Source: a virus (Duplodnaviria > Heunggongvirae > Uroviricota > Caudoviricetes). From it: a DNA stretch of 36,980 bases. Position numbers and translations under genes: made by a program. Numbering within the stretch: the stretch's first letter is position 1; each line of letters starts with the position of its first letter. Below, one piece after another: positions 8,381 to 35,566 of the stretch. The notes under the pieces were generated by a model. That model did not search any database. It was not told where the DNA came from and saw nothing but the letters and a program-made list of their open reading frames with translations. The DNA lies in the IMG/VR virus record IMGVR_UViG_2713896902_000002, positions 1 through 36,980 of that record; one strand, given 5' to 3'.

Positions 8381-8386
8381 GCAGAG

Positions 8387-10697: not shown

Positions 10698-10740
10698 CGG
10701 GGCATAAATTTTTTATGCCCCGGCGAGGCAGCAGACAAGC
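10698..10740. other. candidate cos region: 11-bp-stem hairpin followed by GGCGAGGC... 19-mer
   Basis: cggggcataaa-ttt-tttatgccccg hairpin, then ggcgaggcagcagacaagc whose first 8 nt match remembered P2/186 cohesive ends (GGCGAGGCGGGGAAAGCAC); located between hotspot and Q as in P2. Confidence 0.3.
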
Positions 10741-17670: not shown

Positions 17671-17870
17671 TGAAAGTGCAGGCACTGGCAGGCGACACCG
17701 TGGATTCGCTCTGTTTCCGGCACTACGGCACGACGCAGGGCGTCACCGAAAAGGTGCTGGATGCCAACCCCGGACTCTGCCGACAGGTGTTTCTGGAAGC
17801 CGGGCAGGAAGTGGAAGCGCCGGAGCCGGAGAAGAAGAAACGGGAAATGATTCAGTTGTGGGGGAAGTAG
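17670..17870 (+). CDS. X: tail protein X (LysM-like, P2 gpX family)
   Basis: MKVQALAGDTVDSLCFRHYGTTQGVTEKVLDANPGL resembles remembered P2 X (MKTFALQGDTLDAICVRYYGRTEGVVETVLAANPGL). Confidence 0.8.
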   Translation: MKVQALAGDTVDSLCFRHYGTTQGVTEKVLDANPGLCRQVFLEAGQEVEAPEPEKKKREMIQLWGK

Positions 17871-17872
17871 CA

Positions 17873-18196
17873 GTGAGCACCATTCAAACAGGGATCACAG
17901 AGCAGATTATTGCGTGGCTCTTTGACCACCTGCCAACGGTGTATGCAGCAGGTGCAGCGGTCAGCATTTCCGCGCTGATGAGTCTTTATGACGGACGAAC
18001 ACTGGTTCAGACCGTAACGGGATCGCTGGCGTGCGGCGTTCTTGCCATGGCCGTGGCCGGGTCGTTGCGCTTCTTCGGCGTTCCTGAGGATGCCGTGACG
18101 TTTTTCGGCGCATCAATCGGCTTTATGGGCGCAGAAAAAGCACGCGACAAGATTATTGCCGCCTTTAACCGCATAACCCAAAAGAGAGACGAATAG
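17873..18196 (+). CDS. putative holin (P2 Y position)
   Basis: GTG start after X; hydrophobic segments; sits between X and the endolysin. Confidence 0.5.
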   Translation: MSTIQTGITEQIIAWLFDHLPTVYAAGAAVSISALMSLYDGRTLVQTVTGSLACGVLAMAVAGSLRFFGVPEDAVTFFGASIGFMGAEKARDKIIAAFNRITQKRDE

Positions 18197-18251
18197 GCCG
18201 CAGGCTTTAAAGCCGGTAATCACCATAAAAATCATTCACAGAGGTGACGAA

Positions 18252-18797
18252 ATGAAATCGAAAGACGAAATTTTTGATGCCGTTCTGGGCAAAGAAGGCG
18301 GCTACGTCAATCACCCGGATGACAGAGGTGGTCCGACCAAATGGGGCATCACTGAAAAGGTGGCACGGGCGCACGGATACCGTGGCGATATGCGTGATTT
18401 AACGCGCGGACAGGCACTGGAAATCCTTGAGGCTGATTACTGGTACGGACCGCGTTTTGATCAGATAGCGAAGCTGTCCCCGGATATTGCCGCAGAACTG
18501 TGTGACACTGGAGTAAATATGGGGCCGTCTGTGGCAACCAGAATGCTTCAACGCTGGCTGAACGTATTCAATCAGGGCGGGAGGCTGTATCCCGATATGG
18601 ACACGGACGGACGCACTGGCCCACGCACGATTAACGCATTGCGTGCATATCTGGAAAAACGCGGTCGGGACGGCGAGATGGTGATGCTAACAGCACTGAA
18701 CTGTACACAGGGTGAACGCTATCTGGAGCTGGCGGAAAAACGCGAAGCCAGTGAGTCGTTTGTCTACGGCTGGATGAAAGCGCGGGTATCCGTATAA
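18252..18797 (+). CDS. endolysin, GH108-type muramidase with C-terminal peptidoglycan-binding domain (predicted)
   Basis: N-terminal LGKEGGYVNHPDDRGGPTKWGIT signature typical of GH108 (COG3926-like) phage lysins. Confidence 0.7.
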   Translation: MKSKDEIFDAVLGKEGGYVNHPDDRGGPTKWGITEKVARAHGYRGDMRDLTRGQALEILEADYWYGPRFDQIAKLSPDIAAELCDTGVNMGPSVATRMLQRWLNVFNQGGRLYPDMDTDGRTGPRTINALRAYLEKRGRDGEMVMLTALNCTQGERYLELAEKREASESFVYGWMKARVSV

Positions 18798-18878
18798 AGC
18801 GTCGGCACCGCTTCCCTGCCCTCCAGGACGAACCGGAGTAACGCCAGCAGTAATAACTGAACAACGAGGACAACAGCC

Positions 18879-19346
18879 ATGCTGAAAACTGATTCCCTGC
18901 GTGAAGCCATGACCCGTTCGTGCCGATGGTGTCACGCCAACCCGGAGAAATTCACCATTTTCGTGGAGAGCGGCAACATTGAAACGACCGGAGAAACACC
19001 CTCGTTTGTTTACCGCTATCAGATGGTGATGTTTGTCATGGATTACGCCGGAGAGCTGGACGACCTGACGCTGCCGCTGCTGGCGTGGTTGTCGGAGAAT
19101 CAGCCACAGTTGTTGCTCAATCCGGAGCGCAATCAGGACATCAAATTTTCTGCCGTTATCAATGACGATGACAGCGCTGACCTCCTGTTTACGCTTCCCC
19201 TGCGGGAGCGCGTTCGCGTCACGCGCAGCAGTCAGGGCACACCGCAGGCAGAACACCTGCCGGAGCCCAAACCCCGCCTGCCCTCTTCCGAAGGCGACTG
19301 GTCGCATGTATTCCAGGATGTGACGTGGGGTGAAAACGATGGATAA
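18879..19346 (+). CDS. R: tail completion protein (P2 gpR family)
   Basis: 155-aa ORF at the R position before S and V. Confidence 0.7.
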   Translation: MLKTDSLREAMTRSCRWCHANPEKFTIFVESGNIETTGETPSFVYRYQMVMFVMDYAGELDDLTLPLLAWLSENQPQLLLNPERNQDIKFSAVINDDDSADLLFTLPLRERVRVTRSSQGTPQAEHLPEPKPRLPSSEGDWSHVFQDVTWGENDG

Positions 19347-22285: not shown

Positions 22286-24379
22286 ATGACCACAACACGA
22301 AAATTTAAAACCGTTATCACCGATACGGGTGCAAAAAAATTAGCACAGGCAGCCGCACCAGATGGCAACCCCGTCCGCCTGACACATATGGCCGTGGGTG
22401 ATGGTGGCGGTACTTTACCAACGCCAGACAGTAAGCAGACCCGTCTTGTGCATGAGGTGTGGCGACATACCGTTAATCGCGTCACCCTGGACGCAACACA
22501 TCAGAACCGCATTATTGCGGAGCTGGTTATTCCTCCAGAAACGGGCGGATTCTGGATCCGGGAAATTGGTGTGTTTGATGAGCACGGCGATTTAATTGCG
22601 GTGGGCAATACTGCCGAAAGTTACAAGCCAGCCGTTGCCGAAGGGTCCGGGCGTGCGCAAACATTTCGCACCATCCTGGCCGTATCCAGCACGGCCACCG
22701 TGGCGCTTACCGTGGATAACACCATGGTGATGGCCACAGTGGATTACGTGGATGACAAACTGAAAGAGCATGAACAGTCACGACGTCACCCGGATGCCTC
22801 GCTGACCGCAAAAGGTTTTACTCAGTTAAGCAGTGCGACCAACAGTACGTCTGAAGCACTGGCCGCAACGCCGAAAGCGGTAAAGGCCGCCTATGACCTT
22901 GCCAACGGGAAATATACTGCACAGGACGCCACCACAGCGCGAAAAGGCCTTGTCCAGCTCAGTAGTGCAACCAACAGCCCCTCTGAAACGCTGGCTGCGA
23001 CGCCAAAAGCTGTTAAGACGGTAATGGATGAAACGAACAAGAAAGCGCCGCTGTCGAGTCCGGCACTCACCGGAACGCCAACCGCACCAACTGCGCCAAA
23101 GGGTACTAACAATACTCAGATAGCAAACACGGCGTTCGTTATGGCCGCGATTGCCGCACTTGTAGACTCATCACCTGACGCACTGAATACGCTGAACGAG
23201 CTGGCTGCGGCGCTGGGCAACGACCCGAACTTTGCTACAACCATGACAAATATGTTGGCGGGTAAGCAACCGAAGGACGCCACCCTGACGGCGCTGGCCG
23301 GGCTTGCTACTGCGGCAGACAGATTTCCGTATTTTACGGGAAACGACACTGCCAGCCTTGCCACTCTGACAAAAGTCGGGCGGGATATTCTGGCTAAAGC
23401 GACCGTTGCCGCTGTTATCGAATACCTCGGTTTGCAGGAAACGGTAAATCAGGCTGCTGGCGCATTGCAGAAAAACCAGAACGGCGCAGATATTCCAAAC
23501 AAAGATAAATTTACGCAAACAATAGGTGCTTGCCGCTCTTTTCATGGCTTTATTAGCACAGGTGCAGGGAACTGGACAACGGCACAATTTATCGAATGGC
23601 TGGAATCTCAATGGGCTTTCAATCATCCATACTGGATGTGTAAATGCTCATGGTCATACGGCAATAATAAAATTATTACTGACACCGGATGTGGACTTAT
23701 TCACCTTGCGGGTTGTGTTATTGAAGTTATGGGCCATAAAGGCGCCATGACCATTCGTATAACCACACCGAGTACCTCTAGCGGGGGTGGCACTACGAAT
23801 GCGCAATTTATATATATTAACCACGGTTCAGAGTATTTACCTGGCTGGAGACGTGACTACAACACGAAAAATCAGCAGGCCGCTTTTGCTTTAGAGCAAA
23901 CAGGAAGCACTGTTGGAAATGATAAAGCAGTTGGCTGGAACTGGAATAGCGGGGTATATAACGCAAATATTGGTGGCGCATCGACATTAATCCTCCACTT
24001 CAATATGAACGCGGGTAGCTGCCCTGCTGTTCAATTCCGTGTGAATTATAAGAATGGCGGTATTTATTATCGTTCAGCGCGTGATGGTTATGGCTTCGAG
24101 GCTGACTGGTCAGAGTTTTACACCACAACCCGAAAACCATCAGCGGCAGATGTTGGGGCATATACTAAAGCGGAATGTAATACGCGGTTTATTACAGGTA
24201 TCCGATTAGGTACAAAATCGTCAGCGCAAACATGGAATGGCCCGGGCTGGGGCGATAAATCTGGTTACGTTGTTACAGGTTCCGTTAACTCAAACAAAGA
24301 TGAACTTATTGATACAACACAGGCAAGGCCAGTGCAATATTGTATCAATGGCACCTGGTATAATGCGGGAAGTATTTAA
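22286..24379 (+). CDS. H: tail fibre protein H (constant N-terminal part plus currently expressed variable C-terminal part)
   Basis: 697-aa ORF; internal repeat SSATNS-SE-LAATPKAVK typical of tail fibres; crossover site lies inside the gene at about codon 377. Confidence 0.9.
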   Translation: MTTTRKFKTVITDTGAKKLAQAAAPDGNPVRLTHMAVGDGGGTLPTPDSKQTRLVHEVWRHTVNRVTLDATHQNRIIAELVIPPETGGFWIREIGVFDEHGDLIAVGNTAESYKPAVAEGSGRAQTFRTILAVSSTATVALTVDNTMVMATVDYVDDKLKEHEQSRRHPDASLTAKGFTQLSSATNSTSEALAATPKAVKAAYDLANGKYTAQDATTARKGLVQLSSATNSPSETLAATPKAVKTVMDETNKKAPLSSPALTGTPTAPTAPKGTNNTQIANTAFVMAAIAALVDSSPDALNTLNELAAALGNDPNFATTMTNMLAGKQPKDATLTALAGLATAADRFPYFTGNDTASLATLTKVGRDILAKATVAAVIEYLGLQETVNQAAGALQKNQNGADIPNKDKFTQTIGACRSFHGFISTGAGNWTTAQFIEWLESQWAFNHPYWMCKCSWSYGNNKIITDTGCGLIHLAGCVIEVMGHKGAMTIRITTPSTSSGGGTTNAQFIYINHGSEYLPGWRRDYNTKNQQAAFALEQTGSTVGNDKAVGWNWNSGVYNANIGGASTLILHFNMNAGSCPAVQFRVNYKNGGIYYRSARDGYGFEADWSEFYTTTRKPSAADVGAYTKAECNTRFITGIRLGTKSSAQTWNGPGWGDKSGYVVTGSVNSNKDELIDTTQARPVQYCINGTWYNAGSI
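23415..23440. other. left gix/hix-like inversion crossover site inside H (ttatcgaatacctcggtttgcaggaa)
   Basis: 23 of 26 identical to the reverse complement of the site at 26335..26360; homology extends about 40 bp; encodes YLGLQETVN shared with the alternative fibre segment. Confidence 0.75.
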
Positions 24380-24381
24380 TT

Positions 24382-24915
24382 ATGATGCATTTAAAAAATA
24401 TCAAATCAGGAAACCCCAAAACCGTAGAACAATATGAATTAACACGACAATTTGGCGTTGTCTGGTTGTATTCTGATGACGGTAGAAACTGGTATGAGGA
24501 ACAGAAAAACTTTCAGGAAGATACAATAAAATTTGCTTACACTGCCGATGGAATCATTGTGGCTATAGATAAGGATGTATCGACAATTAATCCTGAAGGT
24601 TTAAGCGTTGTTGAGGTTCCTGATATTACAGCCAATAGGCGGGTCGATATTTCTGGTAACTGGATGTTCAAAGATGGCGCAGTGATAAAGCGGGAATATA
24701 CCGAAGAAGAACAGAGACAACAGGCGGAAAATGAGAAGCAAAATCTGTTACAACTCGTCAGGGATAAAACTCAGCTATGGGATTCTCAGCTACGACTTGG
24801 AATTATTTCTGCTGAGAACAAACAAAAATTGACCGAGTGGCTGCTCTACGCGCAGAAAGTGGAGTCTACGGATACCTCTGTCCTGCCAGTAACGTTTCCC
24901 GAACAACCAGAATGA
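24382..24915 (+). CDS. G: tail fibre assembly chaperone G (within invertible segment)
   Basis: [21 protein letters not shown]...; paralogous to the oppositely oriented G' copy. Confidence 0.85.
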   Translation: MMHLKNIKSGNPKTVEQYELTRQFGVVWLYSDDGRNWYEEQKNFQEDTIKFAYTADGIIVAIDKDVSTINPEGLSVVEVPDITANRRVDISGNWMFKDGAVIKREYTEEEQRQQAENEKQNLLQLVRDKTQLWDSQLRLGIISAENKQKLTEWLLYAQKVESTDTSVLPVTFPEQPE

Positions 24916-24942
24916 GAGAAGGCCCGCATCGGGCCTTAATTT

Positions 24943-25470
24943 TTACTCTGGTTTTTGTGGCCATTCTGGCTTTGCCGTATCCACGCGGCTGACCAGAACG
25001 CTGTAGCGTTCCCAGGCTTCCAGTCGTGTACGTTCCTCATCTGTTGCCATATTCAGCCTGACAGCACGTTCCAGAAGCTGGATGACTGATTCAGCTTCTG
25101 AAAGTAACGCGGCCTTTTGTGATTCGGCCTGTTGTTGCTGTTCGTCTGCTGTATAAATCCGCTTAACCACAGTTCCGTCCTTAAACACCCACTTCCCTGA
25201 ATCATCGGCACGACGATTGGCTGTTATATCGGGAATCTCAACGACGCTAAAGCCTTCGGGATTAAGTGTTGAGGCATCTTTGGTTATGGCAACAATAATA
25301 TTATTTTCGTCGTATACAATCTTTATGGTGTCGTCCTGAAAGTTATTTACTTCCTCATACCAGTTTTTACCGTCTTCGGACCATAACCAGATAACATCAA
25401 AAATTTTTGTTAGCTGATATTGTTCTTTTGTTTTTGGATTTCCGGACTTAATATTTTTTAAATGCTGCAT
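24943..25470 (-). CDS. alternative tail fibre assembly chaperone G' (opposite orientation)
   Basis: [21 protein letters not shown]..., paralog of G, convergent with it. Confidence 0.8.
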
Positions 25471-25473
25471 AAT

Positions 25474-26334
25474 TTACACCTGTGCGACGTTATACCATGT
25501 GCCATTGATGTATTTTTGTATTGGTCTGAAGATGGCTTCATCATCGCCATCTACTTCACCAATGATTCTTAATCCGGTAATTGCGTGTCCGGCTTTTTCA
25601 TAACGACCACCACGCGCCATCAATTGAACAACACGCGTACCCAGGCGAACATCTTTTACATAGCGTGAATCAAAATTCCCCCAGTTGCTGGGCTGTATCT
25701 GACCGTTAACAGAAAATATTACCGAGTTATCTGTATTTCGCTGGCTATAGAAATGCCATCCTGCCTCATCGCCTAACTCTGCAACTACTGGACGGGTTGA
25801 AGCACCCCATAAATTAAACGTTGCATTCTTTGTGGAGGTGTTGGAGCTGGATAGCGAGAACTTTTTACTATCACCTGCCTGAATGTTTTTAAAAGCAATA
25901 GCAACTCCATTCTGAAAGCGGAATACTCGCTGACTATTAGCGTAAACATCCAGAATACCATCACCATTCTGTTTGAATCCGGTGTCATTATCACCAAGAA
26001 CAATAGAGCTACCACCTAACGCATTCGTCGTACCAACTCCAAGACTGCCATTAATGACGGCATTTACCAGAATATTTAGTGCATCCCATTTCAGCGTCAT
26101 CAGGTCTTTTGTTGTGGTGCTCTGGCGGCTTCTCCATTTGAAATATTCATTGCCGTTATCTCCCGTTTCAAACCACATGAATGAATCGGTGTCACCATCG
26201 GCATCATTTTTAAATCCAATCTTTGCCCAGTCAGTATTTCGAATCCAGGCAAGAATTGAGTCGTTTTCAAAAGTAAGTCCACCGGACAAGGTATCGCCTG
26301 TCTTTTGGACGGCGTTACCAGCCTTGTTTACCGT
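25474..26334 (-). CDS. alternative variable C-terminal tail fibre segment H'v (silent; no start of its own)
   Basis: Minus-strand ORF begins at the crossover with ...LGLQETVNKAG... matching H; ends ...YINGTWYNVAQV like the H terminus ...CINGTWYNAGSI. Confidence 0.7.
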   Translation of the reverse strand, partial: TVNKAGNAVQKTGDTLSGGLTFENDSILAWIRNTDWAKIGFKNDADGDTDSFMWFETGDNGNEYFKWRSRQSTTTKDLMTLKWDALNILVNAVINGSLGVGTTNALGGSSIVLGDNDTGFKQNGDGILDVYANSQRVFRFQNGVAIAFKNIQAGDSKKFSLSSSNTSTKNATFNLWGASTRPVVAELGDEAGWHFYSQRNTDNSVIFSVNGQIQPSNWGNFDSRYVKDVRLGTRVVQLMARGGRYEKAGHAITGLRIIGEVDGDDEAIFRPIQKYINGTWYNVAQV

Positions 26335-26360
26335 TTCCTGTAAACCGAGGTTTTTGATAA
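26335..26360. other. right gix/hix-like inversion crossover site (TTCCTGTAAACCGAGGTTTTTGATAA)
   Basis: Near-exact match to remembered Gin/Hin-family recombination sites; inverted relative to the 23415 site; 55 bp upstream of the invertase start. Confidence 0.8.
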
Positions 26361-26414
26361 TGGCCGTTTCTGGCCAGCGTGGCATGATTTGTGCTTTTGA
26401 GCGGGAGATTCAAC

Positions 26415-26567
26415 GTGCTGATTGGCTATGTACGCGTGTCAACAAATGACCAGAACACGGATTTGCAACGCAATGCACTCAATAGCGCAGGATGTGAACT
26501 GATTTTTGAAGATAAAATCAGCGGAACAACTGAGAAGACCAGAGGAAACAAAAAACCGCCAATCTGA
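26415..26567 (+). pseudogene. truncated serine DNA invertase (Gin/Hin/Cin/Pin family), N-terminal 50 codons only
   Basis: [38 protein letters not shown]... matches the invertase N-terminus including catalytic-Ser region, then stops; full-length proteins are about 190 aa. Confidence 0.75.
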
Positions 26568-26589
26568 TCATTAGCGGTTTTGCGTTAAA

Positions 26590-27078
26590 TCAGAACAACC
26601 CTTTAACTGAACTGGCCGCGCTGTTAAGGGATGATGTCACCTTATCTTTGAAGCCTGACAGCATATCGCTGAACGATGAGGATTGCAGGCGTTCCCGTAA
26701 ATCCTCATCACAGCGTTCAAGGGTCAGGGAAAACTCTATCTTTTTCGCTTTCCCGTAGCGATCCAGTTCAGAGCGGGTCGTGCTCGTTTCGGTCAGAACA
26801 TACATACCGTAAATCTGCCCGACACCATCAATCAGAGGCCACGGGCGCCCCACATACGCCTGCGTGGTCAGCAGCGACAGCGACACTTCGCCGCCTGTAA
26901 TCTCAGGATAAAGCACGCCGGAAAGAACGATGCGATCATCACCTGCACCGATATACTGCCAGCTTGCTGAACGGTTAATGCGCTCGTTTTTCACATGCCG
27001 CCAGCTTTTGTTTTGCTGTAACTGCTGATGCGGCAATGTGCGCAACTCAAAAACAAACATGCCGTAGACCATCATCAT
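26590..27078 (-). CDS. U: tail protein U (P2 gpU family)
   Basis: MMMVYGMFVFELRTLPHQQLQQNKSWRH resembles remembered P2 gpU N-terminus (MMMVLGLFVF.LRT.PYQE.QR..SWRH). Confidence 0.85.
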   Translation of the reverse strand: MMMVYGMFVFELRTLPHQQLQQNKSWRHVKNERINRSASWQYIGAGDDRIVLSGVLYPEITGGEVSLSLLTTQAYVGRPWPLIDGVGQIYGMYVLTETSTTRSELDRYGKAKKIEFSLTLERCDEDLRERLQSSSFSDMLSGFKDKVTSSLNSAASSVKGLF

Positions 27079-27090
27079 GGCCAGGCCTCC

Positions 27091-29943
27091 TTACTCTTTA
27101 TCGTAAAAGCTGCCACGCCCGGCACGGGCGCGACGGTCCATTTCCGCCCTGACCATTTCCCCGACCAGTTTCGCCAGTTCGCGGGGATTCTGCGTAACAA
27201 CGTTATGCAGATGGACATGGATTTCACCACAAAATCCGGAGGCAACAGGCTCCCGGTTACGGGAAGTTGCAGGAACTGATGCCACAGGAGATCGTATGGC
27301 CTCCGCCACCGAACGGGAGCTGGCCGCAACAACAGGGACCAGCGCCGGAGGCAGCGGAGCCGGAACCACGGGTGTGATATTAATTGCGGGGGCGGGCTTA
27401 CTGACCTGCGCAATCTTCCGCTCCTGCCACTCCCCACGAACAGCAAGTGCGCGGGGCAAGCTCTTAAAGACAATATCGCCGGGGCCGATACGCTTTTTCG
27501 TCTCATCAACCAGCTTGCCTGTGTTATCTGCAATTTTGCTGAGCCTGCGCAGCGTGCCTGTATTATTGTCTGTGAGCGGCTTGCCCCCTTTGGGGTTATC
27601 GCCTTTGGGTTTATCCCCTTCAGGAGCTTTCCCCGCAGGCTTCGGCGGATTGATTTTCGCGATGTCTCCCTGAAACAGAGCAACTTTTTCCTGAAGAGCG
27701 GCCGCACGCTGTGCGTCTTCGATTTTCTTGCGCGCCCTTTCCGCTTCATCCGGAAGGACGCCAAGTTTTTCCAGTATCCATGCCAGCGTATCCAGCAGCA
27801 TTTTGGCAGGCGTCAGGACAAGCTGTAACGCACCTCCAAGAACATTGCCGAATACCTCGCCAGCACTGGTGCATTTATCCAGCGTTTCCTTGCTGGATTC
27901 CATCGGTGACAGCAGCGATGTAAACCAGTTAAAGACCTGAATCACGCCATCACGAACCAGTTCGAAAACAGGACCAAACCGTTCAAAGGTTTCACGCAAC
28001 GGAGCCAGCCGCTCCATAATCCCGTTGAACACCCCGATATAAAACGCCTTGATGGGTTCCCAGTATTTCCAGATGAGAACCGCCGCAGCCACAAACGCTG
28101 CAACAATCAACCCGACCGGGCTGAACAGTGCCCCGACAGCGCCCCCCAGTAACGAGATGGCCCCCGTCACCATTCCCCATAGCGCTGGCAGAACTCTGAC
28201 AGCATTCATTGAGCCGGTCAGAAGGGAAAAGCCAAGACGCAGTTTTGCCAGCGGGCCAGCAAGCACCCCAAGAGCAAGCGACAACGAGCCAACCGTTGCA
28301 GTCATTGCCAGCAGCGCACCGCCTGCTATCAGTAACTGGCGCGTCAGTGCCGGATGAGCCTGCGCCAGTGCCGTAACTCCGGCAACCACTTTTGTGAGCC
28401 ACTGCGTGACAGAACGCAGTGGACCGTCAATCAGATCCGCAATGCGGATACGCAGCCCTTCCCATGCACTGCCGAGTGATTTCAGGTCGCCATCAAGGTT
28501 ATTGGCCATAACCTTTGCCGTGCGTTCAGCCTCACCACGTGCCCCCTCAAGCTCTTTTCTCAGTTTGGGCAGGGAACCGTTACCCGCCGCATCAACGAGG
28601 GCCATAAGCGATGTAAAGGCCTCCTGTCCGGCGATGTCCTTAAAGAAAGATACCCGGTCAACTTCCCCGTATTTACGGGTGGCTTTATAAAGGTCGGCCA
28701 GCACATCCTCCATCGGGCGCATTTTGCCGTTCGCGTCAGAGACAGACACCCCCAGCTCTTTCAGGGCATCAGCCGCAACTTTTGGTGGCGATGCCAGACG
28801 AGCCAGGCTGGCACGCAACGCCGTACCTGCATCACTCCCCCTGATCCCCATATTCGCCAGCACGCCCGCCATCGCTGCGGCCTGCTCCAGCGATATTCCC
28901 AGCTTACCCGCCACCGGGCCTGCATATTTCATGGTTTCGCCCAGCGCGCGAAGGTCGGTGTTAGTACGGGTAAACGCCGCAGTAAGTGTGTCACCGACCC
29001 GGTCCATCTGGTCAGCAGAGAGGCCGAACTGCGTCAGGATATTGGAGCCTATATCAGCCGTCTCGCCGAGTTCGACGCCACCTGCCAGCGCCATATTAAG
29101 AACACCGGGCAATGCGGCCTGAATGGCCTGCGGAGTAAAACCAGCCATTGCCAGAAAGCTCTGCCCACTGGCGGCATCACTCGCAGTAAACTGCGTTTCA
29201 GAGCCGAGCTTTAGCGCCTGCTCACGCAGCGCCTTAAACTGCGGGCTGTTCTGGTCAATTCGCGTCAGCGCCTGCACACGGGACATCTCTTTCCCGAATC
29301 CGATAGCGGGCTGCAAAAAGCGCCCGGCAGCATAGCCGCCAGCCGCTGCCGCACCAGTTGCCAGCGCACAACCTGTTTTCAGTTTTCCCGCTGTTTCCTG
29401 CGCGCGTGAATACCGCTCACGCGCACGCGTTACACGCGCAAGCGCCTGCCGTTCGCGTTCAAGCTGGTTGTTGTACTGTTCGGTGCGTCTGATGGCCTGC
29501 TGGATGGTGTTATCGCTGCCTGTCAGGGAAATACCGTGGCGTTTCAGTTCTCCGCCAAGCTCCCGCATTTTCTGGATTTCCCGTGCGCGAGATTCATTCA
29601 GGCGTTCAAGCCGGGTACTTAACTGCTGCATCAGCCTTTGTTGTTTTTCGCTGAGCACAGTACCCGTGCGTTGTAACTGGTGAAGGGCGTTAAGCTGGCG
29701 TCGTGCTTTCACGATGCCGCCATCCGCTTTACTGACAGCATCGCGGGCACGCTCAAATGAACGCGCCTGACGCTCGAGATTTTTGATTGCCCCCTGCGTT
29801 CGCTGGATGGAGTCACCAAGTTGCCCCATCAGGCGGCGGACGTTTTCGGTGGGTCGGGTCAGCCTGTCTACAGCACTGAAGGCGACCCGAATGTCAAGAG
29901 TCTTCATTGTCTGCATTCCCACTGCGAAGTGCCGCCCGCTCAC
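27091..29943 (-). CDS. T: tail tape measure protein (P2 gpT family)
   Basis: 950-aa ORF, coiled-coil N-terminus, Ala/Gly-rich hydrophobic central region; between E and U. Confidence 0.9.
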   Translation of the reverse strand: MSGRHFAVGMQTMKTLDIRVAFSAVDRLTRPTENVRRLMGQLGDSIQRTQGAIKNLERQARSFERARDAVSKADGGIVKARRQLNALHQLQRTGTVLSEKQQRLMQQLSTRLERLNESRAREIQKMRELGGELKRHGISLTGSDNTIQQAIRRTEQYNNQLERERQALARVTRARERYSRAQETAGKLKTGCALATGAAAAGGYAAGRFLQPAIGFGKEMSRVQALTRIDQNSPQFKALREQALKLGSETQFTASDAASGQSFLAMAGFTPQAIQAALPGVLNMALAGGVELGETADIGSNILTQFGLSADQMDRVGDTLTAAFTRTNTDLRALGETMKYAGPVAGKLGISLEQAAAMAGVLANMGIRGSDAGTALRASLARLASPPKVAADALKELGVSVSDANGKMRPMEDVLADLYKATRKYGEVDRVSFFKDIAGQEAFTSLMALVDAAGNGSLPKLRKELEGARGEAERTAKVMANNLDGDLKSLGSAWEGLRIRIADLIDGPLRSVTQWLTKVVAGVTALAQAHPALTRQLLIAGGALLAMTATVGSLSLALGVLAGPLAKLRLGFSLLTGSMNAVRVLPALWGMVTGAISLLGGAVGALFSPVGLIVAAFVAAAVLIWKYWEPIKAFYIGVFNGIMERLAPLRETFERFGPVFELVRDGVIQVFNWFTSLLSPMESSKETLDKCTSAGEVFGNVLGGALQLVLTPAKMLLDTLAWILEKLGVLPDEAERARKKIEDAQRAAALQEKVALFQGDIAKINPPKPAGKAPEGDKPKGDNPKGGKPLTDNNTGTLRRLSKIADNTGKLVDETKKRIGPGDIVFKSLPRALAVRGEWQERKIAQVSKPAPAINITPVVPAPLPPALVPVVAASSRSVAEAIRSPVASVPATSRNREPVASGFCGEIHVHLHNVVTQNPRELAKLVGEMVRAEMDRRARAGRGSFYDKE

Positions 29944-30130
29944 GCCAGCTAACCACTTCGCCGGGCGTCATCATGAAGATTTCGGCGGGCGACCAGTTAA
30001 AAATAACGGCAATATCTGCCACAAAGTCTTCTATGTGCTCAAAGCACACAACCGTGATCAGGCTTCCGTCGCCTGTTCGTTCTTCCCGCCAGAGTCCGCA
30101 CCGCTCATAAAATTTACGGCAACCACACAT
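29894..30130 (-). CDS. E' extension frame of the E+E' tail chaperone (reached by programmed -1 frameshift from E)
   Basis: -1 frame ORF overlapping the 3' end of E and the 5' end of T, the conserved G/GT-like arrangement; exact slip site not determined. Confidence 0.5.
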   Translation of the reverse strand: MCGCRKFYERCGLWREERTGDGSLITVVCFEHIEDFVADIAVIFNWSPAEIFMMTPGEVVSWRERAALRSGNADNEDS

Positions 30131-30426
30131 AACTGAATAAAGTCACGGGATGCCATTTTTTTGAGGGTCACTTCATCCAGCCGCGGGGACGTCACGCGTG
30201 ACAGCAGCGTAAACATGGCTTCCGCTTTCAGATTCAGCACATCAGACAGCGACAAATCTCGCAGAGATCCAGCCTGCTCAATAGCCCCGGTGATCTCCAC
30301 ATACGTGATTTTTTCACCACCGCGCTCAACTGGCCGGGTAAGTTTTACGCCGCGCTCGCTGGTTTCTTTCGCAGTATCAGCAACCACCACAGCGTTTTCA
30401 GTATCGGTATTTTTCGTCTCTTTCAT
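30058..30426 (-). CDS. E: tail assembly chaperone E (P2 gpE family)
   Basis: 122-aa acidic ORF between FII and T. Confidence 0.7.
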   Translation of the reverse strand: MKETKNTDTENAVVVADTAKETSERGVKLTRPVERGGEKITYVEITGAIEQAGSLRDLSLSDVLNLKAEAMFTLLSRVTSPRLDEVTLKKMASRDFIQLCVVAVNFMSGADSGGKNEQATEA

Positions 30427-30480
30427 CAGAAAACTCCTTTCAGTCAGAGGCGACGCACTGCGCCGCCTGCATATTACTTA

Positions 30481-30993
30481 TCAGCCAAGCCCAAGCGCGG
30501 AGCGGATGCGGCCGGGTACAATGTCCTTGCCGTCCTTCCGGTAAATGAAGTTCAGCAGGTCAATTTCCCACACCGGGCGATCGTTAACGCTCAGTTTGTA
30601 GTAGGTGTTTTTGATGGCATAAGTGTGTGATGTGGCTTCGCCCTGTTTGGCTTCCCCCATATCAATTTCTGTCACACGCCCGCGCATCTCAATTTCATAC
30701 AGGTCGCTTTCTGCATCGGTGTAGTATTCCCCTGCAAAACGCAGCAATGTGCCGTCAATTGTTCCGCCATATTTAAGGAACAACGCACGAACGGCGCCCC
30801 CCATGACAAAACTCGCATCAAGCGCGGAATCGTCCAGGCCGAGGTCGATACTCACCGCCCCCATCATGCCGCCGCCACGATAGTTGTCGGTTTTACGTGT
30901 CAGTTTGGGTAAAGTAACGGACGTCACCTTTCCCACTTCATTTTCACCATCCACAAACAGCGTAAAAAAGCGAAGATGTTTTGGTACAGCCAT
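30481..30993 (-). CDS. FII: tail tube protein (P2 gpFII family)
   Basis: VTLPKLTRKTDNYRGGGMMGAVSIDLGLDD...LRFAGEY resembles remembered P2 FII (VTLPKLTRKLENYRGAGMNG..VDLGLDD...IRFAGSY). Confidence 0.9.
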   Translation of the reverse strand: MAVPKHLRFFTLFVDGENEVGKVTSVTLPKLTRKTDNYRGGGMMGAVSIDLGLDDSALDASFVMGGAVRALFLKYGGTIDGTLLRFAGEYYTDAESDLYEIEMRGRVTEIDMGEAKQGEATSHTYAIKNTYYKLSVNDRPVWEIDLLNFIYRKDGKDIVPGRIRSALGLG

Positions 30994-32177
30994 TAAGCAC
31001 CTCCAAGCACCGCAAATGCGGGGCCAAAGAACTCATCAGTGAACGCCTGGTAAAGCTCCATATCTTCCAGTGGAGGTACAGGCGTATATTTGTAGCGAAT
31101 ACGCACGCGCCCCTGCCGCAATTCTGTGGTGCTGTTATCCACGATGTCATACCAGCACGACGCGCCAATCAGTTTCCCGGCTGTGACCAGCGAATCCAGT
31201 TTTGCCCTGATGGCACTGACAACGTCCTTCACGTTCGCGGGCGTCAGTGGGCTGTCAATGGTTTCAAACTGCGCTTCCGCAATTGAGTCAGCCAGTATCT
31301 GCGCGGTGCGGGTATACACCTCAAAGATGTAGGCGTTCGTTTCCGGCGTACGGTTGCCCCAGAAGCGGAACCCGTTGCGGCGAATGATGGTGGTGATTTC
31401 CTTGTTGTTGAGGCTGTTGGCGTCACTGTCCTCAGCCTGTAACGACCAGAAAACATGTTTTGACATGCCCAGGACATTTTTAACCGGAACGTTGGACAGC
31501 GATTTGTGCCAGCCCTGCTCGTGGTCAATATACGCACGAAGGCCGCACGCATAGGCAGGCGCGGGGAAAACCTCATTCTCGCCACTTTTCGGGTTGTAAG
31601 CGATAAAATCCGGCCACAGGAGCATCACCTCGCGTTCGCTGAATTTTTCACGGTACGCAATGGCTTCAGCCATCGTGTTACAGCCATTACAGGAGGCATA
31701 CACAAACGCACGCAGTTTACCTGCAATCACGCACAGGGACTTTGTCACCGCCTCCGTGTCCAGCCCCGGCGCGGCCAGAATACGCGGACGGTATCCGATG
31801 CTTTCATCCTGCTCTGCAACAAGCAGCGCATACATCCCCGTATAGCTGCCGTCCTCTTCAGAACCACCGATAACCAGTTGATCCTGTGTTTTTCCGTCCT
31901 CTTCTTTGTGCTCAGCCACGCGAACCACAATCACTTTTGTGCTCACCTGGTCTGCAATGGGTTTCAGCGCACGGTACAGCGTCCCCGTTGTCCCGCATTT
32001 TCCCAGCACGTCATTGACGCGGGTCACTAATGCAGGCTTGTTCAGCGGGAACAGCTTCGCGTCCGCATCGTCCGCCGTTGCCACGATACCGATAACGCTG
32101 GAATCAACGTCGTTAATTGCTGTTACCAGGTCGGTACTTTCCGTAACGCGGGCGCCATGAAAGCGAGTTTCACTCAT
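30993..32177 (-). CDS. FI: tail sheath protein (P2 gpFI family)
   Basis: ...ADDADAKLFPLNKPAL...GTLYRALKPIADQ...YTPVPPLEDM resembles remembered P2 FI (...ASDADAETFPLNKPVL...GTLAASLQAIADQ...YTPVPPLENL). Confidence 0.9.
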   Translation of the reverse strand: MSETRFHGARVTESTDLVTAINDVDSSVIGIVATADDADAKLFPLNKPALVTRVNDVLGKCGTTGTLYRALKPIADQVSTKVIVVRVAEHKEEDGKTQDQLVIGGSEEDGSYTGMYALLVAEQDESIGYRPRILAAPGLDTEAVTKSLCVIAGKLRAFVYASCNGCNTMAEAIAYREKFSEREVMLLWPDFIAYNPKSGENEVFPAPAYACGLRAYIDHEQGWHKSLSNVPVKNVLGMSKHVFWSLQAEDSDANSLNNKEITTIIRRNGFRFWGNRTPETNAYIFEVYTRTAQILADSIAEAQFETIDSPLTPANVKDVVSAIRAKLDSLVTAGKLIGASCWYDIVDNSTTELRQGRVRIRYKYTPVPPLEDMELYQAFTDEFFGPAFAVLGGA

Positions 32178-32334
32178 AGCTTCAGCCCCTTGTATCCGTT
32201 AAATGATTCGGCAACAATCATCACCCACCACGCGCGTAATCTCACCCCTGCGCCGTTCTTGCCGCCCGGCGACAACAAAAAGCAGTAACCCCACCCTCAC
32301 ACACATGCGACCATGCTGTACAGGGAGGAAGCGG

Positions 32335-33444
32335 ATGATTGACACCACCATGCAACTGTTCAGCCAGAACACCGACCCCGTGAAAATGCCTGATTTTGAT
32401 ATTCTCGCGGAGGGAGAAACACTGTCCGGTGTGGCAGAGCGCCTGATGAGTCTGTCACTGACCGACAACAGGGGATTTGAAGCGGACCAGCTCACCATCA
32501 CGCTGGATGATGCGGATGGTCAGTTGCAGCTACCACCACGGGGTACACGCCTGACGGTTCTCATTGGCTGGAAAGGCGAACCGCTGACAGAAAAAGGCAC
32601 TTACATTGTTGATGAAATCGCTCACGAAGGACCGCCGGACAGGCTGACTGTTTCAGCCAGAAGCGCAGATTTTCGGGATGAGTTTAACGTCAAACGCGAA
32701 GTGTCCTGGCATGATGTGACCGTTGAACGCGTGGTGTCTGCAATTGCTCACCGATACGGCCTGAAACCGCAAATCAGCGAAATGCTGATGGATATTGAAA
32801 TCGACCACGCCGACCAGACCGAAGAAAGCGACATGTCCTTCCTGACGCGCATGGCGGAAATGCTGGGCGCAATCACCACGGTAAAAAGCGGTAATCTGTT
32901 ATTCATCATGCCAGGCGGTGGCGTGAACGCACAGGGCCAGCCGTTGCCATCGTTCGCCATCACACGCAGCAGCGGCGATCGCCATCAGTTTCGTATTGCT
33001 GACCGCGAGGCGTATACGGGTGTACGCGCCTACTGGCTTGATCTTAATTACGGGAAAAAGAAAAAAGTCAGCGTGAAACGCCGCAAATCGTCAAAACCGA
33101 AAAAGGAGAAAAGCAGCAGCCGGGAAGGCAACTATATGGAAGGTGCGGAAGGCAACGTGTTTGTGTTACGCAGGACATACCAGAATGAACAGTCTGCAAG
33201 ACGCGCGGCGGCGGCAAAGTGGCAGCAGCTACAACGCGGAGCCGCATCATTCTCCATCACGCTGGCGCGTGGCCGTGCAGAACTCTACCCCGAAATGCAT
33301 GGCACGGTGGCAGGCTTCAAAAGCGACATCGACAATCAGGACTGGATTATTGCAAAAGCCGAGCACACCATTGATAACAGTGGCTTTACCACGCAGCTTG
33401 AGCTTGAAGCAAAAATCCCGGAATGGATAGCAGAAACGGAGTAA
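32335..33444 (+). CDS. D: tail protein D (late gene D family); ORF opens at 32203
   Basis: RBS gggagg then ATG 32335; DNRGFEAD, GWKGEP, FRDEF motifs typical of gpD-family proteins. Confidence 0.85.
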   Translation: MIDTTMQLFSQNTDPVKMPDFDILAEGETLSGVAERLMSLSLTDNRGFEADQLTITLDDADGQLQLPPRGTRLTVLIGWKGEPLTEKGTYIVDEIAHEGPPDRLTVSARSADFRDEFNVKREVSWHDVTVERVVSAIAHRYGLKPQISEMLMDIEIDHADQTEESDMSFLTRMAEMLGAITTVKSGNLLFIMPGGGVNAQGQPLPSFAITRSSGDRHQFRIADREAYTGVRAYWLDLNYGKKKKVSVKRRKSSKPKKEKSSSREGNYMEGAEGNVFVLRRTYQNEQSARRAAAAKWQQLQRGAASFSITLARGRAELYPEMHGTVAGFKSDIDNQDWIIAKAEHTIDNSGFTTQLELEAKIPEWIAETE

Positions 33445-33531: not shown

Positions 33532-33960
33532 CTATACATTTATCCCATCCTGCAAAATCTCAACCACTTCAAATTCCTCTGCAATCAATTCCATATCTTC
33601 AGAAAAATAGCCTTCTCGGACAAAAAATCGCTGATGCTCTTTCTGCCAGTATTCAAGGCTTAAATCTCCTTCGCCTTCTTTGCGGGCAAACACCTCAGTG
33701 ACATCGCAAAAACGCACTAATCGCATTGAAACTAACCGGATTACACAGACAGGAACATTCTGACCATCAAGAATAATGCTATAGTTTCCAATCTTAGGGG
33801 CAGATTCATCCTGCAAATAAGAGATTAAAGAACCACAGGAGGCTGTTTTAACCCCTTTTTTTATCAAGCCAGCAAGCTCGCTAGCCAACTCAGGACTGTC
33901 CCCCATTTGCCAAGCATCTGCACCAGGGTATTTTCTTTTTATTTCCTCAATCGTAACCAT
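33532..33960 (-). CDS. ASCH (PUA-like) domain protein, AT-rich moron; ORF extends to 33978
   Basis: C-terminal FARKEGEGDLSLEYWQKEHQRFFVREGYF pattern typical of ASCH; opposite strand to D/ogr; visibly AT-richer. Confidence 0.55.
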   Translation of the reverse strand: MVTIEEIKRKYPGADAWQMGDSPELASELAGLIKKGVKTASCGSLISYLQDESAPKIGNYSIILDGQNVPVCVIRLVSMRLVRFCDVTEVFARKEGEGDLSLEYWQKEHQRFFVREGYFSEDMELIAEEFEVVEILQDGINV

Positions 33961-34174
33961 TACCACCCTCTTACACATCTATGAAAAGAAATATTGTACT
34001 GTTTTAGCATGTTCCACACCTACATTACCAATAACGATTTTACCCAGATAACGAGGCCTGTCATTCGCTCAATGCAAACCATCAGATTTGGTTGTTCTAG
34101 TTACGTAAACTATTAGTTGGAGTCTGAGCTGGTGCAACTTAAAATAGCAATATTAGCATGTTAAGGGGGTTTCC

Positions 34175-34435
34175 ATGTTTCGTTGTCCGCTTTGTGGCGC
34201 ATCTGCCAGAATACGCACCAGTCGTTCGGAAAATGATTCAGATACCGTACGGAAAAAATATTACCAGTGTAACAACCTGGAATGCGGCGTATCTTTCACC
34301 ACACTGGAAGCCTTCGACAAATTCACATCCAGACACGCCCCCGGCGTCCACTCTTCAGAGGGCATCCCGTGGAATGAGCTGCCAGCTTCGCACAGGGGAA
34401 GCAGTCAGATGAGTTTGCCATTACCTCATAACTGA
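34175..34435 (+). CDS. ogr: Ogr/Delta-type zinc-finger late-gene activator
   Basis: MFRCPLCGASARIRTSR...KYYQCNNLECGVSFTTLEAF resembles remembered P2 Ogr (MFHCPLCQHAAHARTSR...RYHQCQNVNCSATFITYES); Cys4 arrangement; RBS aaggggg. Confidence 0.85.
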   Translation: MFRCPLCGASARIRTSRSENDSDTVRKKYYQCNNLECGVSFTTLEAFDKFTSRHAPGVHSSEGIPWNELPASHRGSSQMSLPLPHN

Positions 34436-34581
34436 CAGCAGGGAGAAATACGGGAGAACCCCAAATAAGGCAGGGATGCAGGAAGATCGCATAAAAAAAC
34501 AAACATAATGTTTTATTTTGAGCATTAATAATATTATTTTCTCAGGTAAGAGTTCAGTACTAATAAAAATATGAGGAGCGC

Positions 34582-34719
34582 ATGTCATCCAACAATATAT
34601 TTATTCTCATTATCTGCATAATTATAACCCTTTCCATATGGATATTATACGGTTCACTGTGCGAATTAAGAGCGCTCATGTGGGGAGACGAGTTTACAGA
34701 TTTTTTGCAATGCAAATAA
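34582..34719 (+). CDS. Hok/Gef-family-like small membrane toxin (45 aa)
   Basis: MSSNNIFILIICIIITLSIWILYGSLCELRALMWGDEFTDFLQCK: N-terminal TM helix then SLCELR and EF..FL, comparable to Hok KSLCEIR...EVAAFM; RBS gaggag. Confidence 0.4.
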   Translation: MSSNNIFILIICIIITLSIWILYGSLCELRALMWGDEFTDFLQCK

Positions 34720-34992
34720 TAAGAAAGCGAATAATATAAGGTTCGCTCTTACAATTGCATAATTTAACTAAAAAAAATCGCCATACTCCGCTATTTTCGC
34801 AACACGCGGGATTGTCGGGGTGTTCCAAAAGAGATAGATTACGCACGGGTGCCTTTCGGCTGATGGCTGGAGGGAATACCCGAAGGCCGGATGTGGAAAG
34901 GCCCCGGAAAACATCTCTGTTTAACCGAGGCCCTGACCATCTACCCTAAGCAAGTGATAGGTTAGCGCCTCCCCGAAAAAGGAGCAAGCGCT

Positions 34993-35133
34993 ATGTCGCA
35001 AAAATCGCTTACGGCCATCACGTTCTGCGTGACGGTAATCCTCATCATCTGGATGCTGCACGGTTCGCTATGTGAAATACGGATGAGCTTCTGGGGAGCG
35101 GAGTTTGCGGCGTTCTTACAGTGTAAGCAGTAA
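34993..35133 (+). CDS. Hok/Gef-family-like small membrane toxin (46 aa), paralog of 34582..34719
   Basis: MSQKSLTAITFCVTVILIIWMLHGSLCEIRMSFWGAEFAAFLQCKQ: exact SLCEIR motif; RBS aaggag; GC-rich structured leader upstream. Confidence 0.45.
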   Translation: MSQKSLTAITFCVTVILIIWMLHGSLCEIRMSFWGAEFAAFLQCKQ

Positions 35134-35269
35134 GGAAACCGCGACGGGGGAGCAATCCCCCGTCAATCGGTTGCCAGGGTAAGGCCGAAATGGCACCCAA
35201 ATTTAAATTGAGGCCCATCAGTAAAAAGAGGTGGGCTTAACGCTTGTTTAAATTTGAAAGGAACTCTTT

Positions 35270-35566
35270 ATGAGTGAAATGGTATTTTGTCGCGGATGCG
35301 GCAAGGAAATACATAAAGATGCCACATCTTGCCCCAATTGTGGAGCACCTCAAAGAACAGCAAGTTCAAAAAGCAGAATAACAGCCGCACTACTGGCTTT
35401 CTTTTTAGGTGGTCTTGGCGCACACAAATTTTATTTAGGTAAAGTGGGGCAAGGATTTCTTTACCTTATTTTTTGCTGGACATTCATCCCGGCAATCGTG
35501 GCTTTTATTGAGTTTTTTATCTATCTGTGCACCTCAGATGAAGATTTCGCCCGCAAATACGGCTGA
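35270..35566 (+). CDS. zinc-ribbon plus TM2-domain membrane protein
   Basis: N-terminal CxxC-x-CPNC zinc ribbon (CRGCGKEIHKDATSCPNCG) followed by LLAFFLGGLGAHKFYLGK, a TM2-domain signature. Confidence 0.6.
   Translation: MSEMVFCRGCGKEIHKDATSCPNCGAPQRTASSKSRITAALLAFFLGGLGAHKFYLGKVGQGFLYLIFCWTFIPAIVAFIEFFIYLCTSDEDFARKYG

What the first reader, a model, noticed from the sequence alone, without database searches (positions are those of the whole stretch)
23415..26567. Mu/P1-style invertible tail-fibre switch (Hv-G / G'-H'v) with gix-like sites and a dead invertase
Seen in sequence: 26-bp inverted repeats at 23415..23440 and 26335..26360 (23 of 26 identical, homology about 40 bp), the right one near-identical to remembered gix/hix sites; between them two oppositely oriented fibre C-terminal segments and two paralogous chaperones; 55 bp outside the right site an invertase ORF matching Gin/Hin for about 40 residues and then terminating at codon 50. 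Inference: the host-range switch is frozen in the present orientation unless a Din-family invertase elsewhere in the genome acts in trans.
Basis: partly seen in the sequence, partly recalled or inferred. Interest (0 to 1): 0.65.

Follow-up and report, generated by a model that had tools for sequence, protein, structure and literature searches.

The report
Orphaned but still-flipping tail-fibre switch
A P2-like prophage of Escherichia albertii carries an ordinary Mu/P1-type invertible tail-fibre cassette whose own invertase gene was gutted by a 447-bp deletion, yet related strains and raw-read assemblies show the cassette in both orientations, so it is probably still flipped by an enzyme encoded elsewhere in the cell.

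Summary
Two gix-type 26-bp sites lie at 23415-23440 and 26335-26360, 23/26 identical in inverted orientation (0 of 100 shuffles gave a match). They bracket two opposed fibre C-termini and two chaperones. A 50-codon invertase stub (26415-26567) starts 55 bp outside the right site.

The lesion is not an A-run frameshift. It is a 447-bp in-frame deletion between 10-bp direct repeats (AGCGGRACAA, junction 26520-26529). It removes Gin residues about 40-188. It spares both sites and the stretch that aligns with P1's annotated enhancer.

"Frozen" is contradicted. A second E. albertii assembly has the identical stub with the whole segment inverted. A third, more diverged one has the same junction and an inverted right junction. 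In both, the switch point falls inside the 10-bp core of the site. Logan (k=31) contigs of two read sets end at the bases predicted for DNA holding both orientations, and nowhere predicted for one orientation.

Best reading: an orphan gix-G-gix cassette served in trans by a Din-family invertase. I could not locate that enzyme.

This is a new member of a well-known kind. Cross-prophage inversion already has precedent (PinQ on e14). Interest is modest.

The parts
22286..24379 (+). Tail-fibre gene H as currently assembled (697 aa). The constant part runs 22286 to about 23427. The variable C-terminus (about 23428-24379) is homologous to Mu/D108 S' (G(-)-type).
   Evidence: Pfam Phage_tail_fib, Phage_fiber_2 and gp37_C. 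Residues 403-697 are 82% identical to the D108 S' fragment.
23415..23440 (.). Left gix-type recombination site, lying inside the H reading frame. The central dinucleotide TC is at 23427-23428.
   Evidence: The simulated crossover at 23427/23428 reproduces exactly the hybrid site seen in L012.
24382..24915 (+). Tail-fibre chaperone, U'-like (177 aa), currently in the expressed orientation.
   Evidence: Pfam Caudo_TAP. It is 82% identical to D108 U' and 81% to P1 U'.
24919..24937 (.). G+C-rich hairpin between the two convergent chaperone genes. It is terminator-like.
   Evidence: D108 has annotated rho-independent terminators at the equivalent place.
24943..25470 (-). Tail-fibre chaperone, U-like (175 aa), currently silent.
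   Evidence: Pfam Caudo_TAP. It is 95% identical to P1 U and 93% to D108 U.
25474..26385 (-). Silent alternative fibre C-terminus (Sv', Mu/P1 S-like). Only the part inside the right site (25474 to about 26347) belongs to the cassette. After inversion it fuses in frame to the constant part of H to give a 671-aa fibre.
   Evidence: Pfam Gp34_trimer. It is 52-55% identical to the C-termini of D108 S and P1 S. The in-frame 671-aa fusion was computed.
26335..26360 (.). Right gix-type recombination site. The central dinucleotide GA is at 26347-26348.
   Evidence: It is 25/26 identical to the gin-proximal gix site of D108.
26415..26567 (+). Invertase remnant of 50 codons. Codons 1-39 correspond to Gin residues 1-39, including the catalytic Ser9. 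Eleven unrelated codons from the 3' tail follow.
   Evidence: Pfam Resolvase, profile positions 2-50 of 145. Alignments to the E. coli UPEC132 and UMNF18 genes are. The intact homologue matches Gin structure 4M6F with E 3e-101.
26433..26504 (.). The stretch that aligns with the recombinational enhancer annotated in P1 at nt 19-90 of cin. It is fully retained in the stub.
   Evidence: P1 annotation. It is 58/72 identical to the P1 enhancer and 54/72 to the gin equivalent. Fis binding was not tested.
26520..26529 (.). Deletion junction. AGCGGAACAA is the single surviving copy of a 10-bp direct repeat whose two copies lie 447 bp apart in intact genes.
   Evidence: Repeat copies lie at L001 10503 and 10950, and at L045 753 and 1200.
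26552..26581 (.). 12-bp-stem hairpin between the stub and the convergent gpU gene.
   Evidence: (I15).
26590..27078 (-). P2 gpU-type tail gene, convergent with the stub. It marks the right boundary of the switch region.
   Evidence: Pfam Phage_P2_GpU.

Best explanation
The locus is a Mu G / P1 C-type invertible tail-fibre cassette carried by a P2-like prophage. The prophage sits between pdxB and flk in Escherichia albertii.

The cassette chooses between two fibre tips, each with its own chaperone. It does this by inverting a 2.9-kb segment between two gix-type sites. The left site lies inside the fibre reading frame, so either tip is fused in frame to the constant N-terminal part.

The cognate Gin-like invertase gene lost 447 bp (149 codons) by recombination or slippage between two 10-bp direct repeats. 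What remains is a 50-codon stub without the catalytic core, the E-helix or the DNA-binding domain, so it cannot catalyse inversion.

The deletion left all cis elements in place. These are both sites with matching central dinucleotides and the 72-bp stretch in the first 90 nt of the gene that corresponds to the Fis-dependent enhancer.

The cassette is therefore an orphan substrate. It continues to invert, most probably through a Din-family serine invertase encoded by another element in the same cell, together with host Fis.

Shown: the anatomy, the deletion, the retention of cis elements, and the occurrence of both orientations downstream of the same deletion.
Inferred: enhancer function, and the identity and existence of the trans-acting enzyme.
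For: Anatomy and homology. DNA is 82-84% identical to the P1 C and Mu/D108 G segments. The gix sites are covered.

Deletion. Alignment to the intact 588-bp genes of E. coli UPEC132 and UMNF18 shows repeat copies 447 bp apart in both. The same junction occurs in three independent assemblies and one Logan contig, so it is not an assembly error.

Enhancer. P1 annotates it at nt 19-90 of cin. The aligned window stretch 26433-26504 lies 16 bp upstream of the junction. [quoted passage not shown]

Still inverting:
(a) L012 (GCA_005404225.1) is identical to the window from position 2908 to 10737 of the locus, stub included. Beyond that point it continues into the reverse complement of the segment. The first difference is at position 20 of the 26-bp site.
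(b) A crossover simulated at the central dinucleotide reproduces the L012 junction exactly.
(c) L009 (GCA_002965545.1, 97.5% identical prophage) has the same junction and the flipped orientation.
(d) A k=31 graph of the window alone has no branch between 22000 and 28000. A graph of window plus flipped form predicts unitig ends at 23433, 23424, 26351, 26342 and 26371. Logan contig DRR017216_387 spans exactly 23424-26351. DRR017216_132 ends exactly at 26342. DRR017218_240 spans 23424-26371.

Precedent for action in trans across prophages: PinQ of Qin inverts the P segment of e14 (PMC12529663). Invertible regions without a nearby recombinase have also been reported (PMC9881135).
Against: No intact invertase was found. 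There is none in the window (tblastn), and the rest of the source genome could not be searched with these tools.

Fis binding and enhancer activity of the retained stretch rest on homology only.

The left junction of the flipped form was not seen directly, because the flipped contig of GCA_005404225.1 ends 59 nt short of it.

Logan's k=31 is from my own knowledge of that resource. The match to the simulation supports it but does not prove it.

Contig ends could in principle have other causes.
Confidence: 0.75

Rival explanations
1. Frozen switch. With the invertase gone the segment is locked, and the phage makes only the currently fused fibre.
For: The stub lacks everything after Gin residue 39. 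There is no other invertase in the window.
Against: The same stub is linked to both orientations in different strains. Contig ends in two read sets match a mixed-orientation population base for base.
Confidence: 0.1
2. The orientation polymorphism does not come from inversion after the deletion. Either the deletion arose repeatedly at the same microhomology, or the stub-bearing right flank spread by homologous recombination onto prophages fixed in different orientations.
For: A 10-bp direct repeat is a plausible recurrent deletion hotspot. The prophages are mosaic: divergence between L009 and the window is concentrated in the tape-measure gene.
Against: The stub and its 3' tail, with small indels relative to E. 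coli genes, are identical in the window and L012. L009 differs at only two bases. This rival does not explain the within-run contig breaks in DRR017216 and DRR017218. The junction is absent from 5,426 complete E. coli genomes, so the deletion is not a frequent event.
Confidence: 0.08
3. Inversion occurs by general (RecA-dependent) homologous recombination across the 58-nt imperfect inverted repeat, with no site-specific enzyme.
For: The arms share 79% identity over 58 nt.
Against: The longest perfect match between the arms is 14 nt. From general knowledge, that is below the roughly 20-30 nt needed for efficient RecA exchange. In the flipped forms whose junction I read directly (L012, and L018, which is identical to it) the exchange maps to the 10-bp interval between site positions 9 and 20, which contains the staggered-cut dinucleotide. 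In L009 the two aligned pieces overlap across the site. None maps to the longer 14-nt identity next to it.
Confidence: 0.05
4. The truncated invertase is a sequencing or assembly artefact and the real gene is full length.
Against: The start codon of the stub and the stop of gpU are 175 bp apart here, against about 620 bp in relatives. The same 447-bp gap is present in three NCBI assemblies and an independent Logan assembly. The A-run lies at the native stop codon.
Confidence: 0.01

Closest known systems
Phage Mu / D108 G segment with gin (G(+)/G(-) host-range switch)
   Same: It has the same cassette order, Sv-U / U'-S'v between inverted 26-bp gix sites. The right site is 25/26 identical. The spacer between site and gene and the first 117 nt of the invertase gene are directly alignable. 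The invertase reads away from the segment. Fibres and chaperones are homologous (82% to S', 82% to U', 93% to U).
   Different: The host phage is P2-like, not Mu-like. The constant fibre part is P2 H-like. The invertase is reduced to codons 1-39. The silent S-like tip is only about 52% identical.
Phage P1 / P7 C segment with cin
   Same: The segment DNA is 83-84% identical. U is 95% identical. The enhancer lies inside the 5' end of the invertase gene at nt 19-90, and 58 of those 72 nt are conserved here.
   Different: In P1, cin lies on the other side and reads towards the segment. The cix sites have a different central dinucleotide (AA/TT against GA/TC) and match the window site at only about 20/26. 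cin is intact.
P2-like prophages of E. coli with an intact Gin-like invertase (UPEC132 prophage, phages 503458 and 520873, ETEC H10407 prophage)
   Same: They share the gene order: V W J I H, chaperone, chaperone', fibre', invertase, then U-T-E-FII-FI on the opposite strand, then D. DNA is 86-88% identical over the switch. Inversion in P2-like prophages of EPEC has been shown by sequencing (PMC4272514).
   Different: All of them have the full 588-bp recombinase gene. None of 5,426 complete E. coli genomes has the deletion junction.
Invertible segments flipped by an invertase from another element (PinQ of Qin acting on the e14 P segment; Fin of Fels-2 acting on the Salmonella H segment; Gin, Cin, Pin and Hin being interchangeable)
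   Same: A Din-type substrate is inverted by an enzyme not encoded next to it. The PinQ case is from PMC12529663. The Fin/Hin case and the interchangeability are from my own knowledge (Kutsukake et al. 2006 J Bacteriol 188:950, which is cited in PMC4272514 but could not be read here).
   Different: In those cases the enzyme is identified and the activity was shown experimentally. Here the enzyme is unknown and activity is inferred from sequence data. This substrate has also lost its own gene naturally while keeping the enhancer inside the stub.

Membership tests
Din-family (Gin/Cin/Hin/Pin) Fis-dependent DNA inversion system | Two 26-bp recombination sites in inverted orientation, with conserved half-sites and identical central dinucleotides | tested here: met
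   The sites at 23415-23440 and 26335-26360 match at 23/26. The right site is 25/26 to D108 gix. The centres are TC and GA. No shuffle gave a match.
Din-family (Gin/Cin/Hin/Pin) Fis-dependent DNA inversion system | An adjacent intact serine invertase (Resolvase catalytic domain, E-helix and C-terminal helix-turn-helix) | tested here: not met
   Only codons 1-39 remain (Pfam Resolvase positions 2-50 of 145). 447 bp are deleted. No other invertase lies in the window.
Din-family (Gin/Cin/Hin/Pin) Fis-dependent DNA inversion system | A recombinational enhancer with two Fis sites in cis, within the 5' part of the invertase gene | tested here: inconclusive
   The stretch aligned to P1's annotated enhancer (26433-26504) is retained and 81% identical. 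Fis binding and enhancer activity cannot be tested with these tools.
Din-family (Gin/Cin/Hin/Pin) Fis-dependent DNA inversion system | The segment is actually found in both orientations, with exchange at the site core | tested here: met
   L012 and L018 are flipped, with the exchange between site positions 9 and 20. L009 is flipped, with its junction overlapping the site. Logan contig ends match the mixed-orientation simulation.
Mu G / P1 C-type tail-fibre host-range cassette | Two alternative fibre C-termini, each followed by its own chaperone, in opposite orientations. One site lies inside the fibre ORF so that both fusions are in frame. | tested here: met
   Pfam and BLASTP results. The current fibre is 697 aa and the computed flipped fibre is 671 aa, both open.
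P2-like (Peduoviridae) temperate phage | The P2 gene set: integrase, gpA, portal and terminase Q/P, O N M L X, lysis genes, R S V W J I H, FI FII E T U D, and ogr | tested here: met
   Pfam families of called genes. Differences from P2 are that the FI-U block is on the opposite strand, and that no LysB/LysC genes are called between the endolysin and R.

The most novel reading that the evidence does not exclude
The stub is not mere debris. The first roughly 120 nt of the dead invertase gene persist because they carry the enhancer. That would make the prophage's host-range switch a stable 'orphan' substrate that depends on, and is regulated by, the invertase of a co-resident mobile element, which would be a functional dependency between prophages. 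The same junction occurs in prophage lineages that are 2.5% diverged, which would fit long-term maintenance of this state.
Probability: 0.25. Interest if true: 0.45.

Novelty: new member of a known kind. Interest (0 to 1): 0.3.

Why it matters
It is a natural example showing that loss of the adjacent recombinase gene does not mean an invertible locus is locked. Annotation pipelines and inverton surveys that require a neighbouring recombinase would miss or misjudge it.

For this prophage, virions can probably still carry either fibre type (Mu S'-like or S-like), so its host range is wider than the assembled orientation suggests.

It also illustrates a cheap in-silico test. The contig ends of k-mer assemblies of public read sets reveal mixed orientations.

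Beyond that, the system is textbook biology.

Tried and rejected
- Exact-protein look-ups of the stub (58-aa and 50-aa versions) found nothing on record.
- The integrase look-up failed.
- The junction pattern was absent from species-representative genomes, IMG/VR and JGI metagenomes. The deletion therefore looks confined to a few E. albertii strains.
- I tried to recover the left-flank Logan contig through gpI and gpJ. gpI is too common (18,518 blocks). The gpJ places were collapsed into one.
- The 175-aa chaperone look-up gave no new contexts.
- I looked for extra gix-like sites that might explain the inverted FI-U block. None has fewer than 8 mismatches.
- Literature searches for the accession numbers and for E. 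albertii P2-like prophages found nothing specific. Kutsukake 2006 and Plasterk 1985 are not held.
- I considered spending a large protein search to hunt the trans-acting invertase. I rejected it because the tools cannot restrict a search to one genome and would show only the longest contigs.
- I considered naming individual Fis core sites in the stub. I dropped it because my candidate pair is spaced 49 bp apart rather than the 48 bp I remember, and nothing here can test it.
Full report
**What is there**

The window is an almost complete P2-like prophage. It holds an integrase at 1-1020 (- strand), a gpA replication gene, portal and terminase, capsid genes, lysis genes, and R S V W J I H. FI FII E T U follow on the opposite strand, then D and ogr. 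The host gene flk follows at 35997-36980.

The window is identical to part of NCBI contig BBVM01000002.1 of assembly GCA_001514725.1. Its Flk protein is 98% identical to that of the Escherichia albertii type strain, against 91% or less for every other species representative found. I therefore take the host to be E. albertii. Other genomes with the identical Flk have pdxB directly next to flk, so that is the empty insertion site.

**Checking the observation**

- The inverted repeat is 58 nt at 79% (23415-23472 / 26303-26360).
- Its 26-bp cores (23415-23440 and 26335-26360) match at 23 of 26 positions.
- A search allowing three mismatches finds only these two sites in 36,980 bases. None of 100 shuffles gave a match. 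The next-best site in the window has eight mismatches.
- The right site differs at one base from the gix site next to gin in the Mu-like phage D108. The 54-bp spacer and the start of the invertase gene align base for base with D108.
- Both sites have the central dinucleotide TC/GA. The P1 cix sites have AA/TT. The sites are therefore gix-type.

Between the sites lie four coding pieces:

| Coordinates | Strand | Feature | Closest match |
|---|---|---|---|
| to 24379 | + | C-terminal 300 codons of the 697-aa fibre gene | 82% to D108 S' |
| 24382-24915 | + | 177-aa chaperone | 82% to U' |
| 24943-25470 | - | 175-aa chaperone | 95% to P1 U |
| 25474-26385 | - | second fibre C-terminus | 52-55% to Mu/P1 S |

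The segment DNA is 82-84% identical to the P1 C and Mu/D108 G segments. The prophage is assembled in the state equivalent to Mu G(-). Inverting the segment at the central dinucleotide gives an open 671-aa fusion with the S-like tip.

**The invertase lesion**

The true start is GTG 26415, aligned to the annotated start in E. coli UPEC132. The frame closes at 26567 after 50 codons.

Codons 1-39 correspond to Gin residues 1-39, including Ser9. The intact E. coli homologue matches the Gin crystal structures with E about 1e-101.

Alignment with the 588-bp genes of UPEC132 and UMNF18 shows one gap of 447 bp (149 codons). The gap is bounded in the intact genes by two copies of AGCGG(A/G)ACAA in the same reading frame. 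One copy survives at 26520-26529. This is the signature of slippage or illegitimate recombination between short direct repeats.

The deleted part holds the rest of the catalytic domain (including the WKLDRLGRS motif), the E-helix and the helix-turn-helix domain.

The 3' tail also differs from the E. coli genes by small indels, one of which removes the native TAA. I cannot tell whether these predate the deletion.

It is the complement of the T-tail of the terminator-like hairpin shared with the convergent gpU gene. No base-calling error there could restore the gene.

The same junction is present in three NCBI assemblies and one independent Logan assembly. It is absent from 5,426 complete E. coli genomes, where every full-length match is split around an intact recombinase gene. 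It is also absent from 185,579 species-representative genomes, IMG/VR and JGI metagenomes.

**What the deletion spared**

The P1 record annotates the enhancer of Cin-mediated inversion at nt 19-90 of cin. The aligned stretch here is 26433-26504. It is 58/72 identical to P1 and ends 16 bp before the junction.

It begins about 85 bp from the centre of the right site. [quoted passage not shown]

Both sites, the enhancer-equivalent stretch and both fibre/chaperone pairs are therefore intact. Only the enzyme is missing. Enhancer function is inferred from homology, not tested.

**Is the switch frozen? No.**

1. Looking up the gpU protein found the same prophage in assembly GCA_005404225.1 (locus L012). 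L012 is identical to the window from locus position 2908 to 10737, which includes the whole stub. From position 10738 it continues into the reverse complement of the segment, at 99.9% identity over 2,862 bases. The first differing base is position 20 of the 26-bp site. The exchange therefore lies between site positions 9 and 20, the interval that contains the staggered-cut dinucleotide. A computed crossover at 23427/23428 and 26347/26348 reproduces the L012 junction exactly.

2. GCA_002965545.1 (L009) carries a 97.5% identical prophage at the same chromosomal site. It has the same deletion junction, with two substitutions downstream of it. Its right junction is of the flipped kind. Only the first 379 bases of the segment are held for this locus, and they are 91.8% identical to the window's Sv end in reverse.

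3. Logan assemblies of raw read sets break exactly at the sites. From my own knowledge, Logan assemblies use k=31.
   - A k=31 de Bruijn graph of the window alone has no branch between 22000 and 28000, because the arms share at most 14 identical bases.
   - A graph of the window plus its flipped form predicts unitig ends at 23433, 23424, 26351, 26342 and 26371.
   - Contig DRR017216_387 spans exactly 23424-26351. DRR017216_132, which has no mismatch to the window over 10.7 kb, ends exactly at 26342. DRR017218_240 spans 23424-26371.

   This is what a DNA preparation containing both orientations produces.

4. The BJCZ contig also stops inside the segment, 59 nt before the other site. That is suggestive only.

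**Mechanism**

The cassette works as in Mu. The left site lies in the fibre reading frame. Inversion swaps the tip together with its chaperone, while the terminator-like hairpin between the chaperones ends transcription in either orientation.

Here the enzyme must come from elsewhere. The exchange point in the site core and the 14-nt limit on perfect homology argue against RecA-type recombination.

Din-family invertases act on each other's substrates. PinQ of prophage Qin inverts the P segment of prophage e14 (PMC12529663). Invertible regions without a nearby recombinase have been noted in surveys (PMC9881135). The interchangeability of Gin, Cin, Pin and Hin, and the action of Fels-2 Fin on the H segment, are from my own knowledge.

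I could not search the source genome for such an enzyme. None is in the window. This is the main gap, and I put the trans-acting model at 0.75.

**Comparison and novelty**

The locus works like, and is by descent a copy of, the Mu G / P1 C cassette, placed in a P2-like phage as in many E. coli prophages. Inversion in P2-like prophages has been demonstrated in EPEC (PMC4272514).

It fails one defining feature of a complete Din system, the adjacent intact invertase. It is best described as an orphan member.

The particular deletion and the evidence that the orphan still flips are new details. The principle is known. Novelty: new member of a known kind. Interest: 0.3.

Noticed in passing
window 26590-32177 (- strand) and 32203-33444 (+): The tail-gene block FI-FII-E-T-U is on the opposite strand from V-W-J-I-H and D, unlike canonical P2 where (from my own knowledge) all read the same way. 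The arrangement is conserved in E. coli relatives (UPEC132; phages 503458 and 520873). The block is bracketed by the invertase gene and gpD. No gix-like site was found at its far end (best other site has 8 mismatches).
   Followed up: partly
window about 17870-18880: The lysis region has a holin and a GH108-type endolysin directly followed by gpR. The LysB (DUF2570) and LysC spanin-like genes present in the UPEC132 relative, which has an M15 peptidase instead, are not called here.
   Followed up: no
window 7105-10215: Cargo lies between gpA and the portal gene: a ParM-like actin (7105-8064), an HTH plus M78-peptidase (IrrE-like) protein (8562-9707), and an overlapping PIN-domain protein (9664-10215). 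This may be a toxin-antitoxin or defence module.
   Followed up: no
window 33532-35566: An ASCH-domain gene lies on the - strand between gpD and ogr. A 46-aa Hok/Gef-like ORF and a 98-aa TM2-domain ORF lie between ogr and the host flk gene.
   Followed up: no
L018 (Logan DRR170629_151), equivalent to window 26422 and 25015: This contig is identical to part of the flipped BJCZ assembly. It runs through the hybrid site without a break. It ends inside the 5' end of the invertase stub and inside the U-like chaperone gene. Neither point is a branch in the window's own k=31 graph, so this is a weak hint of a second, related Gin-type cassette in that genome.
   Followed up: partly
L009 against window 27300-29300: Divergence between the two deletion-bearing prophage lineages is concentrated in the tape-measure gene (33-47 differences per 500 nt, against 0-12 in most other bins and at most 19 in any). 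This indicates mosaic recombination.
   Followed up: no
window 22810-22885 and 22942-23017: Two 76-nt direct repeats (75% identical) lie in the constant part of the fibre gene. They correspond to the two Phage_fiber_2 repeats and resemble the repeated elements annotated in P1 S.
   Followed up: no
L005-L008, L010 against L009/L011: The prophage sits between pdxB and flk. Several genomes with the identical Flk protein have this site empty, so the element is variably present within the species.
   Followed up: partly
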